From the human T2T-CHM13v2.0 reference genome, Homo sapiens: a DNA stretch of 64,000 nucleotides. The position numbers and the translations under genes were made by a program. The DNA lies in assembly GCF_009914755.1 (NCBI RefSeq), contig NC_060932.1. One strand, written 5' to 3'. Shown here in pieces: positions 5,851 through 28,866 of this stretch; the stretch's first letter is position 1; every line of letters begins with the position of its first letter. The notes under the pieces were generated by a model. That model saw nothing but the letters and a program-made list of their open reading frames with translations. It made no database searches and was not told the origin of the DNA.

Positions 5851-6904
5851 CGTTAAACACATACTTAGCAATTCTACCCAACAATTCTAATCATAGGAAT
5901 GTACTTAAGAGAGATGGAAATACATGTCCACACAAAGATTTACATACACATGTTCATAGCAGCATCAATAATTGATGTCAGAAATTGGAAACAAACCAAA
6001 TATTTATCAACAAGCTCATGGAAAAACTAAACATGTGTATCATAGAATCGAACACTATTCAATAACAAAAGGAAGTGAAATGTTGCTTCATGCTACAACA
6101 TGAGAGAACCTCAAAAACATCATGCTAAGTAAAAGAATTTCGGTGCAATACCACACATTGTATCATTCAATTTATATGAAATGTTCACAAAAGGAAAATC
6201 TAGAGAAAAAGAAAAATGATTAGTGGTTGCCTGGGGCTGGGGTTGAAAAAGAAAATTGCCAACAAACACAAGGAATATTTTGGAGCGATAACACGTTCTA
6301 AAATTGAAATTTAATGGTTGCACAACTCTATAAATTTGTTTACCTGTACAAATAAAAAGTGTGAATTTTGTGTTATGTAAATTATACCTCAATTATCATG
6401 TTAAAAAATGCCAGCAATTTTTTTTAGCAGATTACAAGCTGATTCTAAAATCCATAATGAAGTGCAAAGGACCTAGAATACCCAAACAACTTTGAAGAAG
6501 AATATATTCAGAAGGCTAACACTACCTAATTTCAAAACTATGAAACTATAGCAATTGATACAACATGATATTTGCATCGAGATAGATAAATAGATCAACA
6601 AAATTAAACAAAGAGTCCAGACTATGCCCACATATATAGAAAAATGATCCTTGACAAAATAAAAAGGCAAACCAGTGGAGAAAGGGTAGTCTTTTCAACA
6701 AATGATATTGAAACAATTGAATATTCTTACGCAAAAAGTGAACTTTGATTAATACCTTGCACAAGCACACAAAGTCAAAATTGATCATAGACCTAAATAT
6801 AAAACCTAAAACTAAAAAACTTGCAGAAGAAAGCATAGGAGAAAATCTTTGCGACCTTATGTTAGGCAAGAAATTTTTAAATATGTGATATATATAAAAC
6901 AAAA

Positions 6905-7150: not shown

Positions 7151-8332
7151 AGAAGAAAATATACAAAACAACTAGGCCATGAACAAATTGCTGATTGATA
7201 TTAAGCAATTTAAACACATATAATCCATAAAAGAAAATAAACTGGGCTTTGTTAAATTTAAAAAACATCTGCTTTCTGAAAGACACTGGTAGGAGAATTA
7301 AAAGTTTAGCCACAAACTGGGACAAAAGTATTTGCAAAGCATAGATAGGATTAAGAGTTCATACCCAGAATATATATAGAACACTCAAAAACAAACAATG
7401 AACACACACACCCCTAAAAATAAGTCCAACAATTTGAAAAGACACTTCATCAGAAAAGATATGTTGAATTTCAAATAAACACATGAAAAGGTACTCCACA
7501 TCATTAGTGATTAGAGTAAAGCAAATTTAAACTACAGTGACATACCGTTACACACCTAACTTTAAAACACTGACTATACCAAGTGTTGGTTAGGATATAA
7601 AGGAAATAGAGCTTCTTTACCAACTGGTAGAAATATGAAGTACTATAACCACTATGAAAACAGTTTGGCAGATTCTTAAAATGTTAAGCATACAACTACC
7701 AGATTATCTTGCCATGTTACTCCTAAGTATTCTCCCAAGAAGAAAGCGATGTCTACATAAAAACTTGTGCACAAATATTCATGGAAATTTTATTTGAAAT
7801 AGTCAAACGCTGAAGACAACAACAATGTCATCAGCAGGTGAATGGATAAACAAATTGTGGCATATTCATACAATGGACTGCTACTCAATAATGAGAAATC
7901 AACTATTTACACACTTAACATAGATGGATCAGAAAAATTATTATGCTACCAAAGGTAGATGAAAAAGAAGAGTACAAACTGTTTTATTCCGTTTTTATAA
8001 AATTCCGCAAGGTACAAACTAAACCACAGTGACAGAAGACTGATCACTGCTTGCCCAGGGAAGGGCAAGAAGAAGGCTGGGTGGGAGGAATTACAACAGA
8101 AAAGAAGCTCTAGAGAGTGAGGTAGAAGTGTATTATCTTGATGGTGATGATAGTTTTACAGCTGTATACCTATGTGAAAACTTATCACATTGTAAGATTT
8201 AAATACATGTATTTCTTATAGGTCAATTATACTGCAATAAAATGATGAGGAAATGAGGACTACAAGATAAATTTAAACAAGAGGTCAAGAGCCAGTTCAA
8301 GCAGGCCTAGAAGAGTTTTTAAGGATTTTTAA

Positions 8333-9084
<752 letters not shown>

Positions 9085-20726: not shown

Positions 20727-22345
20727 GTGCCTGATTATGTGGACAGGATTTCAGCCATGGCAAAAACTGCTTGGAGAGAGCCTGACCTGTTTGTTTGCAG
20801 AGTAAAGCCTAAGGAAGCACCTTTGGAACACAGTGTTTTTGTACATGGAGTGTCACATGTCAAGGCTTCCACGACAGGAATGCCTAGCCAGAAGGCCCAC
20901 TCCAGTGCAACGTGTGGTCCAGTTTGAAAGATATTGTGTACATGACAGAGGCTTCTGGTTCAGAGCAAGCCTTTACCAGCACCGGAAGCTGAATAGTGGG
21001 GAGAAGCCCTTAATAAGAAAAGATGGCAGGGACTGAGTTTTGAAGAATGGCAGAGTTCACCTGTCATAAAAGCCCTTCAGATATAGGAAGGGTAAGAAGG
21101 ATTTTCTGACCAGCTCAGGTCTTCTCAAGCAACAGGTCACTCACAGTGGGGAAGGGGTGCAACACAGGAGCACCAGGTGGGAGGAGGCCTTTCACATTGG
21201 ACAAAGGCACTACAGAAGTCTTGAGCATCAGAAAGCCTTTAATCACAATAAATACTTGTTAAGCACCAGAGAATATATACTGAATAAAATCCTTATGAAA
21301 ACAGCAAATGCAGAAAATTACTTAATCATAAATACAACTTTATCATACAGGCAAGAGTTCACACTGAAACCCCTTATACGCCAAACAACTGTGGGAATTT
21401 CCTTAGCCAGTGCTTCAACTCCACTCAACATAGAACAGTTCATATTAGAGAAAGGCCTTTCGAGTGTAGCAAATGGGAGATATCAGTTATCTGCAACCAC
21501 ACACCTACTAAGCACTGGAGAGTTCACACTGAAGAATTCAAAAGGGCATTTAGAATGCAGCAAATTTGGACATTTTTTCACATCTCCAGCCTCATTAAAC
21601 ATCAAGGTATCCATAATGAAGAAAGGCTTAATTAATGAAGTGAATGTGGGGAATTCTCTAACCATATCTCTAAGTCTCTTTCAACACCAGAGAATGCAGC
21701 AAGGTCTTATGAGTAAAGCAGATGTTGGAAATGATTTAGTAAAAAGTCCAACCTCATCTGACACCAAAAAGTTTGCTACAGAGAAAAGCCTTATGTGGGA
21801 AAAGCTTAAACCAAATGTCTGCTCTGATTCAGCAGCAGAAAATTCACAATCCAGATAGGCATTATAAATAAAATGAATTTAGGGAAAGCCTTCAGCCAAA
21901 GACTTAACTTTATTTGGAACCAGAAAGTTCACACTGGAGAAAGACTTCAGGAATGCAAGGAATGAAACAAAACCTGACACACACCAGAGAGACACTCTTT
22001 AAGTAGCCTTTACAACTAAATCTCATTCATCCAAATATGCATACTGGGGAGATTCCTATGAGTGTTGGATATATTGAACACTTTTTGGAGCTAAGTTGCA
22101 TGTCCTCACCTGTCCAAGGACTTTACCAGAGTTATGTAGCCACTACTACCTGTGACAAAGTCAATTTCAACTCTACCAGCTGGCAGTTGTCCGTGGTGTG
22201 CATCAGCAAATTTCTGTGACCTCTCTCCAATTCCTGTAAGAAATTTTGAGTAGCCTAAGCCTATTAGGGGTTCCAGTTTGTGGAACCATTGTTTTACTCA
22301 TAGATAAGACCCTTCTGTTTTAATTTCTTCTTAGTCATCCCATTG

Positions 22346-24064: not shown

Positions 24065-24330
24065 AAAAATTGTACTAGAATAATGAATGAAAACAATACA
24101 TAATCATTGCTTTATTTGCACTTATTTTATTTGCAAGTGAGGGTAAACAGATTCGCAAGTTACGTAGTCATTACATTTTCTTTTGTCAACTGCCCATAGC
24201 TGCTTTTGGACTTTTTTAAAAAAAATTACATCCGCACCTAGTTCTTATTGAATGCTTACAATGTAAAAGGGACAATGTATACATCCTTTAAACCAATATC
24301 TACTTTATGATTTAGTTTTATTATCTAAGA
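24065..24330 (-). mobile_element. L1ME-type fragment
   Basis: tcattgctttatttgcacttattttatttgcaagtgagggt...ttttcttttgtcaactgccc resembles antisense ORF2 C-terminus. Confidence 0.5.
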
Positions 24331-24509
24331 CATTTTACAAAGAAATAACAAGTACAGCTTACAGTTTCCCCTGTCACACATCAAGTATCAAAAACTAATT
24401 TAACTGATTTCAAAAATCTATGCACCTAACCACTCTTTTGTATCTTCTCTATTGACCTATTCCTCTATCAATATGTAATATTACATTAACCTCATTTATG
24501 TCCTGACAT

Positions 24510-24825
24510 CACCTCTAATCTACAGAATGGACATTTTAATAGTTGCCTAAAACTCAGCATTATTCTCTTCACCTAAAATTTTTTCACCTCAAATCCTCCC
24601 CATTTTAGTAAATGACACCAACCATCCACCAGTCCTAAAGTTAACAAAAAAGCTGCAATCTTTATGCTGTCTTTCACTTTCTAGATTACTCTCATCAGCA
24701 AATCTTACTAATACTACCTTCGAATGATCTTCCAATGCAATCATTTCTGATTTTTCTGATTATTTCTACTTCTCATAGTCAGGTCCAAGCCACAATCATT
24801 CCCTTTCCTGACCAACCTACAACAG
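24510..24825 (+). mobile_element. L2 fragment
   Basis: cctccccattttagtaaatgacacacaaccatccacc...catcagcaaatcttac...ccttc...gtccaagccacaatcat. Confidence 0.7.
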
Positions 24826-24839
24826 TGTACTGTTTTCAT

Positions 24840-25291
24840 ATTTTTATTTTTGAGGTATTATATAAAGTGTGAAGTGTATAGACATACAAAATATGTATGT
24901 ATCAAGGATCAAGAAAAAGAAAACAGCATTTCTAAAGTTTCCCCGTGTTACTTTCCAAACAATATCCTAAAAATAAAAGGGAAAAAAACAAACAATATCC
25001 TTTCTTCCTTCCACAGAGATACCTACTATTCAAACTGTAATCACCATAGATAAGTTTTTAGTGCTTTGGAACTTTAGAACTGAATCAGTTTGTACTCATT
25101 TCTACCTACATTTACAATCAACATGTTGAGATTAATCCACAGTTTCATATAGCAATTGTGCCTTATTTTATATTATGCTTTATCCAATTGTATGACTACA
25201 GCACAAATTATTTATCAATTTTAGCATATTGTAAAGTGAGATCATTTCCAGGCTTTGGCTATTAAGAAGTAGCCACTAACTTTATTACACG
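24840..25291 (-). mobile_element. L1ME-type fragment; host of the DCAF4L2 retro-insertion (continues at 27648-28110)
   Basis: atcaacatgttgagattaatccac...tttccaggctttggctatt; L1 antisense sequence resumes at catacatttctctt...aagaagtgaaattg. Confidence 0.6.
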
Positions 25292-26142
25292 TTTTTTTGT
25301 TTTTTGTTTTTTTTGTCTTTTCTAGCTTATTGTTGGTAGAAAAACAGGCTAACACTTTGAATAAACATCTCACAAACTGCTGCTCCTAGATTACAAAAAG
25401 TCAAAGCCAATTATCTTTGACACTGAGCCCTTGAATCCTGACATTCAAGTCACAATAATAGAAACCGGAGCTGCTGTACCTTACATTCTGGAAGATGCCT
25501 CAACAAAAGCACGTTAAGGACTGTTTAAAACTTCTATTATTTAAAAAGATCCACCTTTCCTCCCATTGCCTATGGAAAATAATAAAAGGAGAATCTCAGA
25601 GATCTGCTATTGAGTTTGAGAAGGCCAAGTTTAATGATTCCAAAATGTAGCCTTAAAAACTTCTGGAGAGACTCAGATAAATGACCTCCCCCTCCTCTCC
25701 TCTCCCACTGGCCTCTTCAAGTACAGATGATGCATGTATTTCCGGAACCCAGGTAGGACTAGTCAAACAGTCTCATGCTTCTCTAAAAGGCTTCTGGTGT
25801 AAGCAGTTTTAATTTATTTTAGTTTTTGCCAATCTTCAGTCCTTAGAAAAGTGTTTTTTTGTTAAAAAAAAAAAAAGGGGGGATAACTATTCTAAGGTAT
25901 TCAACAAGAAAAGGAAATAGTTATCTTTTATGAAAAGGACTTTCAAGCTCTCTCAGCCCAGTTTAACTGAAACAACTTTACAGAACTATCTTCACATAAA
26001 ACAGCACCTTACCCCTAGCAGCCGGATGGATGGGATCTACAAACACCGAACATCTCTTAAAATGCGCTCATAGAAACGGTAATACGATGCTCTTTACTTC
26101 TTTAAGTCAAATCCACGTTCCTCCGGGCTGCATCCTGAAGAA

Positions 26143-27330
26143 TTAACCGTAGGAGAAACAATAAAGGTCCTCCCGGACAGCCATGAGCAGCCCTGGTGCT
26201 CCTCGGAAGCCCCCGAGGCGAGAAGAGAAGGCCACACTGGGAATGTCGTTCTCCGAGGCGGGGTATGGGGAGGGTATGGTTGTGAGCAGGTGGCCATGAC
26301 GGAGGCTCCAGATTCTCGTGTAGCAGTCCTGGCCCACGGCCGCCACGACTCCTTCTTCTTCGTTCACATGCACGGGTAGGTAGGCGGAGTTATTCACATG
26401 ACCTTCGTACTGTGTTACACATTTAGTGGCCCTCAAGTCCCACAGCTTGATAGTTCCAGTCATGTCTGATGACACCAGGAATTGGCCATCTTGGAGGATT
26501 TGCAGAGAAGTCACTGCTGAATCATGGGACAGGCAAATGGCCTTCCACCCGCTGCCTTGATTTCCACAGCGCAGATCAATGCCAAAGATCTCCCCAGAGC
26601 GACAGCCATTAAACAGCAAAGGAGTCATGATTGCAAACTGCTGGGCCAAGACATCACTGCTAGTCCCAAATGACTGCTGGTGTCCCGTCACCACGTTGGT
26701 CAACAGGACCTGCTGAGACAAGCCTGTACTGAAAGAGTGATACGCGTGGATGCTCAGGGACCAGGCACAGGACCAGGCATCAGGGATCTGGAAACTGCAA
26801 AGCATGCCAGGCCGACGCATTCCTGGGAAGCTACCTATGAACAGCGACGCTGGGAGCAGCACGGCACAGCTTGGAGTATCTGCAAGTCCCACGAAGCACA
26901 GCAGAAGGTGGGAATCCAAGTGATTCAGTGAGGCCCAGCACATAGAATTCACCTTCCGATTAGGGACGTAGAGGGTTTTGTGCGGGTATACCCGGAGCTC
27001 AGGGGTCGTCAGGCCTCGCATGGTGATGATGCCGTACTTGGAGCCTCCAGCTTCGACTTGGTTCACTGTGAAGAGCTGGTCAGTGTTGGTATTCGCCAGT
27101 ATGCGGTTAAATCGGTCGCTTGCCAAAGAGGAGGGATCCCAGCTATGAATCTGGACCTTTTTCCTCTGCATGCAGCTTACACGCAGCTCGCGAGCTATAC
27201 GGCAATAGTTGGCGAATCTGAGGAAACCTAGCTGGTTCTTTCGTAGCATGGAAGGTGCATTGAGTCCCACTCTGACTGTCTTTTTCTGCTTGTCTGCTTC
27301 CTCGAGCAGTCGCGGTCTTTTGCTCTCCAT
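26143..27330 (-). CDS. DCAF4L2: DDB1- and CUL4-associated factor 4-like 2 (WD40 substrate receptor, WDR21C), single-exon retrogene, 395 aa
   Basis: Uninterrupted ATG-to-TAA ORF starting [17 protein letters not shown]; H-box-like [13 protein letters not shown] (27223-27261); WDxR motif IKLWDLR (WDLR at 26431-26442); WD repeats; high similarity to recalled DCAF4. Confidence 0.96.
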
Positions 27331-27611
27331 TTCGTTCGGCGGATGTTCTCCCTCCTGAGGGGAAGTTCTGTCCCGGGAGTAAGAGGAAGTACCGCTTCTT
27401 TACAAGCACGACTTGGCACGGAAGAACTTCCCGCTGCGCCTGCGCCTGTGCGTATGAGGTCGACCCGGACGAGATTCTTCGTCGCCTTGGCCCAAATCCC
27501 GAATGCTCTGAGGTGCCCTGACATAACTCTCGTTAGAATCGCGTGATCTGAAACAAGAGTTCCGCTGCTTCTCTCGAGTTTTCCCCTACTCAGACAGCTG
27601 CTTTTATTCAT
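27331..27611 (-). pseudogene. Frameshifted remnant of the DCAF4 N-terminal coding sequence
   Basis: Pieces in different frames: [54 protein letters not shown]; these match recalled DCAF4 MNKSRWQSR, NPWFRLRDS..DSGHGDDES, AGTSSVP, KKRYFRLLPGHN, PLTKESIR. Confidence 0.85.
27380..27460 (-). promoter_or_regulatory. Putative CpG-rich DCAF4L2 core promoter
   Basis: NRF1-like tgcgcctgcgcc (27435-27446), E2F-like ttcccgc (27428-27434), ETS-like cggaag (27419-27424) and aggaagt (27384-27390), in a CpG-rich region within AT-rich surroundings. Confidence 0.6.
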
Positions 27612-27659
27612 TTCTATTCCTGTTTAGAGATTCTTTTCCGACCCCTCTTACACACGTCA

Positions 27660-28094
<435 letters not shown>

Positions 28095-28225
28095 GTGTAT
28101 ATATATCCTTGCCAATTCTTGTTGGTCAGTTTACATTTTAGATATAAATAATTTATAATTGTTTTTGTCTTCCTGTTGAAAGATTGCCATTATTATTATA
28201 AAATATTCCTTTTTAACTTTTATTT

Positions 28226-28866
<641 letters not shown>

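What the first reader, a model, noticed from the sequence alone, without database searches (positions are those of the whole stretch)
27331..27647. DCAF4L2 promoter and 5'UTR appear to be built from the dead N-terminal coding sequence of its parent DCAF4
Seen in sequence: upstream of the ATG the minus strand still has an ATG at 27609-27611 and encodes, switching frames, MNKSSCLSR / NSCFRSRDS..DLGQGDEES / AGSSSVP / [12 protein letters not shown] / PLRRENIR. Established (from recall): DCAF4 begins MNKSRWQSR..NPWFRLRDS..DSGHGDDES..AGTSSVP..KKRYFRLLPGHN..PLTKESIRQKE-MESKR. So the retrocopy was full length, and about 100 N-terminal codons decayed by indels while the rest stayed intact. The NRF1-like GCGCAGGCGCA, E2F-like GCGGGAA and ETS-like TTCCG motifs lie in the stretch encoding TGAGAAGSSSV, which looks slightly expanded relative to the parent. 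Inference: a retrogene that landed in AT-rich L1 sequence without a promoter gained one by converting part of its own CDS, and moved its start to an internal Met.
Basis: partly seen in the sequence, partly recalled or inferred. Interest (0 to 1): 0.8.

Follow-up and report, generated by a model that had tools for sequence, protein, structure and literature searches.

The report
DCAF4L2 promoter from dead parental coding sequence
The stretch just upstream of the human DCAF4L2 start codon is the decayed first 100 codons of its parent gene DCAF4, now used as a CpG-rich promoter and leader, which was already published in 2008; a sister gene on chromosome 4 appears to be a copy of this gene's own messenger RNA.

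Summary
Observation confirmed. Window 27647-27331 (minus strand) aligns to the spliced tail of exon 1 and exons 2-4 of DCAF4 on chr14. Identity is 200 of 273 aligned bases; score 86.5 against 11.2 +/- 1.7 in 200 shuffles. Eight internal indels break the frame. The old ATG survives at 27611-27609.

The RefSeq start site (27374) lies inside this relic. The relic is the CpG peak of the locus (22 CpGs, o/e 1.07).

Added here: the retrocopy's target-site duplication, poly(A) remnant, killed parental poly(A) signal and 1.18-kb 3'UTR extension. Also new: DCAF4L1 on chr4 is not an independent DCAF4 retrocopy, as that paper deduced. It carries DCAF4L2's internal poly(A) remnant and unique chr8 flank. 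It starts about 16 nt upstream of DCAF4L2's start site, ends at its poly(A) site, and sits between duplicated target sites in a LINE-like repeat. It is most likely a retrocopy of DCAF4L2 mRNA.

The parts
27648..27657 (-). Candidate 5' target-site duplication of the primary retrocopy (ACGTGTGTAA)
   Evidence: It directly abuts the first base that aligns to DCAF4 exon 1. It matches ACGTGTAA directly after the poly(A) remnant, apart from one GT step. Short, so moderate weight.
27620..27647 (-). Relic of the last 28 nt of DCAF4 exon 1 (5'UTR)
   Evidence: 21 of 28 identical to chr14 locus 6176-6206, ending exactly at a CAG|GTAAGA donor inside the DCAF4 CpG island. It is the best of 919 GT-anchored candidates (z about 3.9). 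However, 16 of 500 shuffles reach the free local score.
27527..27619 (-). Relic of DCAF4 exon 2, with the old start codon at 27611-27609
   Evidence: blastn E 3e-9; alignment; 7-nt deletion at 27567.
27413..27526 (-). Relic of DCAF4 exon 3, with L2-specific 5-nt and 11-nt insertions
   Evidence: tblastn pieces; alignment. The exon 3/4 junction is placed to within about 2 nt.
27434..27448 (-). Hexamer tandem array (GCGCAG on the minus strand, 2.5 copies) that makes the NRF1-like GCGCAGGCGC (27445-27436). The E2F-like and ETS-like words follow at 27434-27419
   Evidence: TRF: period 6, 100% matches. The array is absent from the parent. The motif is unique in the window, 0 of 100 shuffles. The transcription-factor names are recalled consensus sequences, not tested.
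27331..27412 (-). Relic of the 5' part of DCAF4 exon 4 (codons about 65-100). It holds the RefSeq TSS (27374) and the whole 44-nt 5'UTR (27374-27331)
   Evidence: blastn E 1.6e-19; deletions of 16, 7 and 1 nt; TSS from the hub's RefSeq table. There is no ATG between 27522 and 27331.
26143..27330 (-). DCAF4L2 coding sequence (395 codons plus stop), starting at the codon homologous to DCAF4 Met101
   Evidence: ORF. Collinear with 10 further DCAF4 exons without introns. Pfam Beta-prop_DCAF4, E 3.7e-197, residues 42-394. dN/dS 0.50 against DCAF4L1.
25322..26142 (-). 3'UTR inherited from DCAF4. The parental AATAAA is changed to AATAAG at 25331-25326
   Evidence: 78% identity to the DCAF4 last exon and 3'UTR as far as its poly(A) signal.
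25293..25321 (-). Poly(A) tail remnant of the primary retroposition
   Evidence: A-rich run that begins where homology to DCAF4 ends.
25285..25292 (-). Candidate 3' target-site duplication (ACGTGTAA)
24111..25284 (-). Host-derived extension of the 3'UTR up to the present poly(A) site, with AATAAA at 24131-24126
   Evidence: No homology to DCAF4 downstream DNA. Unique in the genome apart from the DCAF4L1 locus. The mRNA end comes from the hub's RefSeq table.
27705..27982 (-). Alu-like repeat, antisense to the gene, 48 nt upstream of the retrocopy. Not part of the retrocopy
   Evidence: More than 40 matches of 71-91% identity within the 40-kb DCAF4 locus alone; masked in the hub table. The name Alu is recalled.

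Best explanation
A spliced DCAF4 mRNA, running from within exon 1 to its poly(A) tail, was retroposed into unique AT-rich DNA on chr8.

Its first 100 codons lost their reading frame. Translation now starts at the codon homologous to DCAF4 Met101, which keeps the whole beta-propeller.

The dead stretch (27647-27331) turned into a short CpG-island-like promoter. Transcription starts inside the exon-4 relic, at about 27374-27390. The 44-nt leader has no upstream ATG.

The roughly 270 bp upstream of the TSS consist of exon 1-4 relics. They carry 22 CpGs and a GC-box-type motif cluster, made partly by a hexamer duplication.

The high CpG retention implies that the stretch is unmethylated in the germ line. 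This fits testis-restricted expression, somatic silencing by methylation and reactivation in tumours.

Shown here: homology, anatomy and CpG statistics. Taken from annotation and print: TSS position, expression and methylation. Inferred: which motifs drive transcription.
For: - **Homology.** Score 86.5 against 11.2 +/- 1.7 in 200 shuffles, none reaching it. Identity 200 of 273, with eight internal indels.
- **Retrocopy structure.** 14 collinear DCAF4 exon blocks without introns. Poly(A) remnant and flanking ACGTGT(GT)AA repeats.
- **TSS.** RefSeq TSS 27374 lies inside the relic (hub table).
- **CpG content.** o/e is 1.07 in 27331-27623, against 0.59 in the CDS, 0.34 in the inherited 3'UTR and 0.19-0.26 in the flanks. 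The 200-nt windows with o/e 1.05-1.14 all lie within 27300-27649.
- **CpG origin.** Only 3 of the 22 CpGs sit at parental CpG columns, and 4 lie in L2-specific insertions.
[quoted passage not shown] They list 17 oligo-capped clones.
- **Methylation.** Three array CpGs strongly hypomethylated in liver cancer (delta-beta -0.50 to -0.56) are labelled TSS200, TSS200 and 5'UTR/1stExon (PMC3577824). By their spacing of 168 + 21 they fit window CpGs 27563, 27542 and 27374.
- **Expression.** Expression falls with methylation in lung cancer (PMC6924172, figure legend). Expression is testis-restricted (bioRxiv 10.1101/2025.08.25.672079, passages).
- **Independent fossil.** The DCAF4L1 insert begins at the equivalent of 27390/27391 and ends at 24111.
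Against: - No TSS data (CAGE, oligo-cap reads) were seen directly. The paper's Figure 3 and its supplements are not held.
- Promoter activity of 27375-27647 was not tested.
- CpG gain cannot be polarised without an outgroup: 10 of the 22 relic CpGs are TG or CA in today's DCAF4 and could be ancestral.
- The array-probe mapping rests on CpG spacing alone. Two near-fits with spacings off by 1-2 nt exist.
- The adjacent Alu-like repeat also passes CpG-island thresholds, so part of the regulatory input could come from outside the retrocopy.
- The exon 1 match and the 8-10-nt target-site duplication are short.
Confidence: 0.85

Rival explanations
1. The promoter was inherited rather than converted. 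On this view DCAF4 already had a weak exonic start site and an internal start codon around exon 4, and the retrocopy simply carried them along. This corresponds to the 'exonic promoter' idea cited by Okamura and Nakai, and to the parent-inherited class of Carelli et al. 2016.
For: - The internal Met has G at -3 and G at +4 in both parent and copy (sequences).
- The CTTCCG word just upstream of the TSS region is present in DCAF4 and DCAF4L1, while DCAF4L2 has CTTCCT there.
- Carelli et al. found parent-derived upstream sequence for 6 of 230 human retrocopies (PMC4772013).
Against: - The sequence upstream of the TSS is a splice product of four exons that lie 1.7 to 11 kb apart in the parent. It never existed as one promoter there.
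- The parental homologue has CpG o/e 0.65 against 1.07 in the relic, with 3 shared CpG columns.
- The unique GCGCAGGCGC motif arose by an insertion specific to the copy.
Confidence: 0.1
2. Transcription is driven from outside the retrocopy, by the Alu-like repeat at 27705-27982 or by unique chr8 DNA. On this view the relic is only a leader or a methylation-sensitive spacer.
For: The Alu-like repeat is CpG-rich (o/e 0.71-0.84) and lies only 48 nt upstream of the retrocopy.
Against: - RefSeq TSS 27374 and the published oligo-cap TSS cluster lie inside the aligned region (hub table; PMC2386082).
- Starts upstream of 27611 or 27524 would place out-of-frame ATGs before the real start.
- The DCAF4L1 insert begins at 27390/27391, not further upstream. 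5' truncation during retroposition could also explain that.
Confidence: 0.05
3. The resemblance to the DCAF4 N-terminus is chance, or a reading artefact from switching frames.
For: None beyond the general risk of picking peptides from three frames.
Against: The nucleotide alignment has z about 45. It is collinear with the rest of the gene. Exon borders fall where the parent's splice sites are.
Confidence: 0.01

Closest known systems
Okamura and Nakai 2008, promoter-acquisition category II: WDR21A (DCAF4) to WDR21C (DCAF4L2, NM_152418) and WDR21B (DCAF4L1). PMC2386082
   Same: It is the same locus and the same claim: degenerated upstream coding sequence serves as the promoter, a downstream AUG is used, and the parental core promoter was not carried.
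   Different: They deduced 'probably 2 independent retrotransposition events' for WDR21B and WDR21C. The data here show that DCAF4L1 descends from the DCAF4L2 locus. They also suggested that splicing condenses parental CpGs into an island. Here only 3 of 22 CpGs are at parental CpG positions. Their Figure 3 and supplementary Figure S2 could not be seen.
PPP1R26P1 retrocopy CpG island in RB1 intron 2 (PMC3839921; abstract seen in the listing only)
   Same: A CpG island lying inside a truncated retrocopy serves as a methylation-controlled promoter.
   Different: There the island drives an alternative transcript of the host gene, and the retrocopy is a pseudogene. Here it drives the retrocopy's own surviving reading frame.
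Carelli et al. 2016 classes of retrocopy promoters (PMC4772013)
   Same: The sequence upstream of the TSS aligns to the parental locus, which is their criterion for 'parent-derived upstream sequence' (6 of 230 human cases). They also report that CpG islands with NRF1, Sp1 and E2 motifs are enriched at retrocopy promoters.
   Different: Their model is a carried-along alternative parental promoter. Here the sequence is former coding sequence from several exons. DCAF4 is not named in their main text (0 occurrences), and their supplementary tables are closed.

Membership tests
LINE-1-mediated processed retrogene | Collinear, intron-free copy of the spliced exons of a multi-exon parent on another chromosome | tested here: met
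   14 collinear blocks of the chr14 DCAF4 locus align to one uninterrupted stretch, 27647-25327.
LINE-1-mediated processed retrogene | Poly(A) tail remnant at the end of the parental 3'UTR | tested here: met
   29-nt A-rich run at 25321-25293, starting a few bases after the position of the DCAF4 AATAAA.
LINE-1-mediated processed retrogene | Target-site duplication flanking the insert | tested here: met
   ACGTGTGTAA at 27657-27648 and ACGTGTAA at 25292-25285, each abutting an end of the insert. It is short and has one 2-nt step. No empty site from another species was available.
LINE-1-mediated processed retrogene | Open reading frame kept under constraint | tested here: met
   395 codons open. 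Full Pfam Beta-prop_DCAF4. dN 0.147, dS 0.291, ratio 0.50 against DCAF4L1 over 395 codons. The constraint is moderate only.
Okamura-Nakai category II (parental CDS became the promoter) | The TSS and the sequence upstream of it align to the parental coding sequence | tested here: met
   The alignment was tested here. The TSS position is taken from RefSeq (27374) and from the paper's text, and was not measured here.
Okamura-Nakai category II (parental CDS became the promoter) | The parental core promoter was not carried along | tested here: met
   Only 28 nt of exon 1 align. No significant match of 27704-27622 to the DCAF4 CpG island or to 17.6 kb upstream.
Okamura-Nakai category II (parental CDS became the promoter) | A downstream AUG is used, and the upstream frame is degenerate | tested here: met
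   The CDS starts at 27330, which corresponds to parental codon 101. There are eight indels upstream.
Okamura-Nakai category II (parental CDS became the promoter) | The relic has promoter activity | not testable with these tools
   Needs a reporter assay or CAGE.
Parent-inherited promoter (Okamura-Nakai category I; Carelli 2016 Fig. 2A) | The upstream region corresponds to a contiguous parental promoter | tested here: not met
   The upstream region is a splice product of exons 1-4. There is no alignment to the DCAF4 promoter CpG island beyond the last 28 nt of exon 1.
CpG island (Gardiner-Garden and Frommer criteria, as named in PMC2386082) | At least 200 bp, G+C at least 0.5, CpG o/e at least 0.6 | tested here: met
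   27375-27574: G+C 0.55, o/e 1.13, 17 CpGs. Qualifying windows run from about 26800 to 27600. The threshold values are recalled.
Methylation-controlled cancer-testis gene promoter | Testis-restricted expression, with promoter CpGs methylated in soma and demethylated when the gene is reactivated | tested here: inconclusive
   Literature only. The placing of the three array CpGs in the relic rests on CpG spacing. No germ-line methylation data were seen.

The most novel reading that the evidence does not exclude
DCAF4L1 on chr4 is a second-generation retrogene. It is a LINE-1-mediated copy of the DCAF4L2 mRNA itself, not of DCAF4 and not a segmental duplicate.

Its two ends are therefore a fossil record of that mRNA. 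They would show that, at the time of copying, the ancestral DCAF4L2 was already transcribed from inside its dead coding sequence (5' end at window 27390/27391). They would also show that it already read through the killed parental poly(A) signal to today's site (24111).

The copy took only about 60 nt of leader with it, yet is itself capped and transcribed (8 oligo-capped clones in PMC2386082). So the part of this promoter that matters may lie at or downstream of the start site, and could travel with the RNA.
Probability: 0.75. Interest if true: 0.45.

Novelty: already known. Interest (0 to 1): 0.3.

Why it matters
How a promoterless retrocopy becomes an expressed gene is a standing question in new-gene evolution. 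This locus is a clean case in which the answer is the copy's own discarded coding sequence. That was published in 2008, so the finding as given adds nothing new.

It gives evidence that the CpGs are mostly not the parent's CpGs. It also corrects the family history: one retroposition of DCAF4, then retroposition of the new gene's own mRNA.

That correction gives an evolutionary time-stamp for the start site and the poly(A) site. It can be tested with other primate genomes.

DCAF4L2 is also being put forward as a cancer-testis antigen. Knowing which CpGs make up its promoter therefore has some practical use.

Tried and rejected
1. DNA self-search of 27331-27647 in the genome found only itself. 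The parent had to be located with the protein.

2. A stringent local aligner found nothing for exon 3 or exon 1. Ungapped and free local searches for exon 1 were not significant. Only the donor-anchored scan picked out the exon 1 tail.

3. A 23-nt similarity (19 of 23) between the DCAF4L1 5' flank and the start of exon 2 first suggested an internal deletion in DCAF4L1. It was rejected: z is only 1.2-1.8, and the stretch is part of the LINE-like repeat and of the DCAF4L1 target-site duplication.

4. Two independent DCAF4 retropositions into copies of one repeat family were rejected. The shared 3' flank is unique in the genome.

5. The flanks 24300-25280 and 27983-28240 have no dispersed copies. 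The tool skips very common words, but it did report 304 candidates for the LINE-like flank of DCAF4L1.

6. The sigma-70 and terminator scan found nothing and is not meaningful for a human promoter.

7. The search of earlier findings was not open.

8. The 127-codon ORF from the old ATG (27611-27228) is a mechanical ORF across frame shifts, and nothing supports it.

9. Literature searches on a retro-origin of DCAF4L1 or DCAF4L2 gave 0 papers. The WDR21C search listed 8 papers; by its title only Okamura and Nakai 2008 concerns the gene's origin, and the other seven were not opened.

Full report

Yes. The old ATG is at 27611-27609.

The genome that holds the window could be searched. The DCAF4L2 protein found three loci: itself, an intronless paralogue on chr4 (DCAF4L1, 74% identity), and a multi-exon locus on chr14 (DCAF4).

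I fetched 40 kb of the chr14 locus. blastn aligned window 27621-27527 and 27404-27280 to two chr14 exons (E 3e-9 and 1.6e-19). The rest of the gene aligned exon by exon down to the parental poly(A) signal.

The exon in between was found by tblastn and by reading the splice sites.

Met101 of the parent is the present DCAF4L2 start.

Against spliced exons 2-4 the relic scores 86.5, versus 11.2 +/- 1.7 (maximum 19) in 200 shuffles. Identity is 200 of 273 aligned columns, or 73.3%. That is lower than in the inherited 3'UTR, where the difference is 0.19.

Eight internal indels (-7, -3, +5, +11, -1, -16, -7, -1) destroy the frame.

**2. Anatomy of the locus** (coordinates checked)

The last 28 nt of DCAF4 exon 1, ending at a CAG|GTAAGA donor inside the DCAF4 promoter CpG island, match 27647-27620 at 21 of 28 positions. 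This is the best of 919 GT-anchored candidates in 17.6 kb. As a free local alignment it is weak: 16 of 500 shuffles reach it. Nothing further upstream aligns.

Directly upstream lies ACGTGTGTAA (27657-27648). Directly after the poly(A) remnant (25321-25293) lies ACGTGTAA (25292-25285). I read these as the target-site duplication. They are short and carry one GT step.

The parental AATAAA is AATAAG in the copy (25331-25326). The RefSeq mRNA runs on for 1.18 kb of chr8 DNA to 24111, downstream of a new AATAAA at 24131-24126.

The retained ORF holds the complete DCAF4 beta-propeller (Pfam PF23761, residues 42-394, profile 1-353 of 353).

**3. Promoter evidence**

The RefSeq TSS (27374, hub table) lies in the exon-4 relic. 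The 5'UTR and everything for 270 bp upstream of it are therefore former DCAF4 exon sequence.

CpG observed/expected by region:

| Region | CpG o/e |
|---|---|
| 27331-27623 (relic; 22 CpGs, G+C 0.53) | 1.07 |
| CDS | 0.59 |
| Inherited 3'UTR | 0.34 |
| Flanks | 0.19-0.26 |

The 200-nt windows with o/e 1.05-1.14 all lie in 27300-27649. Values decline through the first 400 bp of the CDS. Such retention of CpGs is what germ-line hypomethylation produces. This is an inference from established knowledge of CpG decay.

The homologous parental sequence has 15 CpGs (o/e 0.65), and only 3 alignment columns are shared. Of the 22 relic CpGs:
- 3 are shared with the parent;
- 10 are TG or CA in today's parent, so they are ambiguous;
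- 4 lie in copy-specific insertions;
- 5 are at other dinucleotides.

The 11-nt insertion is a perfect hexamer array. It creates GCGCAGGCGC, which is unique in the 64-kb window (0 of 100 shuffles). Calling it NRF1-like, and its neighbours E2F-like and ETS-like, rests on recalled consensus sequences.

Transcripts that start downstream of 27522 have no ATG before 27330.

**4. Literature**

[quoted passage not shown] They report 17 oligo-capped clones.

Carelli et al. 2016 (PMC4772013, passages) found parent-derived upstream sequence in 6 of 230 human expressed retrocopies. They do not name DCAF4 in the main text.

Methylation papers fit a methylation-controlled promoter. Three array CpGs labelled TSS200, TSS200 and 5'UTR/1stExon lose methylation in liver cancer (PMC3577824). 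Their spacing (168 and 21 nt) fits window CpGs 27563, 27542 and 27374 exactly. Two other triples fit only with spacings off by 1-2 nt.

Expression falls with methylation in lung cancer (PMC6924172, figure legend). The gene is testis-restricted and reactivated in tumours (bioRxiv 10.1101/2025.08.25.672079, passages).

**5. What the surroundings add: the origin of DCAF4L1**

The 2008 paper deduced two independent retropositions for WDR21B and WDR21C. The sequence argues otherwise.

- DCAF4L1 aligns to DCAF4L2 from window 27370 to 24248 by blastn, and by eye and global alignment from 27390/27391 to 24111.
- This span includes the primary poly(A) remnant, the same junction to chr8 DNA, and the whole 1.18-kb host-derived 3'UTR.
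- That 3'UTR extension has no other copy in the genome: 3 candidates in all, chr8 and chr4 only.
- Identity is 25 of 29 and 34 of 40 just inside the two ends. Just outside it is 21 of 38 and 18 of 35 aligned columns, the level of unrelated AT-rich sequence under a gapped aligner.
- The two ends coincide with DCAF4L2's RefSeq ends: 16 nt upstream of the TSS, and exactly at the poly(A) site.
- On chr4 the insert is followed by a run of 10 A. It lies inside a dispersed LINE-like repeat (304 first-look candidates, 40 scored, 69-80% identity).
- Three uninterrupted copies of that repeat were compared (L041, L042, L043). In L042 both flanks align over the same 14 nt, which the repeat carries once. 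In L043 the 5' flank ends at the same word. In L041 the 5' flank alignment stops short of the junction.
- At DCAF4L1 that stretch occurs on both sides, as ATAAAAAGTAGCAA and AAAAAAATCAGTAA (10 of 14 alike).
- Both paralogues share the 7-nt frame-breaking deletion upstream of the ATG.
- In the inherited 3'UTR (754 columns) the K2P distances are 0.142 for L1-L2, 0.222 for D4-L2 and 0.254 for D4-L1. There are 97 sites where L1 and L2 agree against DCAF4, versus 51 and 34 for the other two pairings.

The simplest reading is a retrocopy of the DCAF4L2-lineage mRNA.

Weak points:
- The A-run cannot be divided between templated A's, tail and target site.
- The target-site duplication is only 10 of 14 alike.
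- 5' truncation could mimic a TSS.
- A DNA duplication with those exact ends is unlikely but not excluded.

If the reading is right, the ends of DCAF4L1 date both the exapted start site and the read-through poly(A) site to before that event. At recalled neutral rates of 1-2 x 10^-9 per site per year, a pairwise distance of 0.14-0.29 means tens of millions of years. This is a rough inference only.

**6. Verdict**

The 'L1 landing site' detail is unsupported for DCAF4L2; it is DCAF4L1 that sits in a LINE-like repeat.

The new elements are modest: the base-level anatomy, the mostly non-parental CpGs, and the serial-retroposition history that corrects the published deduction.

No paper in the held library addresses that history apart from the 2008 paper. 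Searches found none. One search listed 8 papers naming WDR21C; apart from the 2008 paper I saw only their titles and abstract openings.

Noticed in passing
L037:5502-9046 (chr4:41955502-41959046), compared with window 27391-24111: DCAF4L1 looks like a retrocopy of DCAF4L2 mRNA. It shares the internal poly(A) remnant and the unique chr8 3' flank. Its ends fall at the DCAF4L2 TSS region and poly(A) site. A roughly 14-nt target-site duplication flanks it inside a LINE-like repeat. This contradicts the two independent events deduced in PMC2386082.
   Followed up: yes
L037:5524-5573: The DCAF4L1 leader, just upstream of its ATG, carries a 20-nt tandem repeat (2.5 copies, 93% matches). It is made from the exon-4 relic and is absent from DCAF4L2 and DCAF4. 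It may bear on the different TSS positions reported for WDR21B.
   Followed up: partly
window 25326-25331 and 24111-25284: The parental poly(A) signal is AATAAG in DCAF4L2. The mRNA has recruited 1.18 kb of unique host DNA as extra 3'UTR, ending after a new AATAAA (24131-24126). DCAF4L1 shows that this read-through is old.
   Followed up: yes
chr4 stretch of L037, about 8255-8350: A partial Alu-like insertion, a T-run followed by an antisense Alu-like sequence, sits in the DCAF4L1 copy of the 3'UTR extension. It is flanked by a repeated GGATGGCAGCTTTTTT and is absent from DCAF4L2.
   Followed up: no
window 27228-27611 (minus): A 127-codon ORF starts at the old DCAF4 ATG and runs through the shifted frames into the 5' end of the DCAF4L2 CDS, out of frame with it. 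It would be translated only from transcripts that start upstream of 27611. No evidence for it was found.
   Followed up: no
window 26950-27300: CpG o/e stays at 0.74-0.92 through the first 400 bp or so of the coding sequence, then drops to 0.24-0.5. The island-like region therefore spans the relic and the start of the CDS.
   Followed up: partly
window 20974-21793: The hub table lists a ZNF773 pseudogene 2.3 kb downstream of the DCAF4L2 poly(A) site. It was not examined.
   Followed up: no
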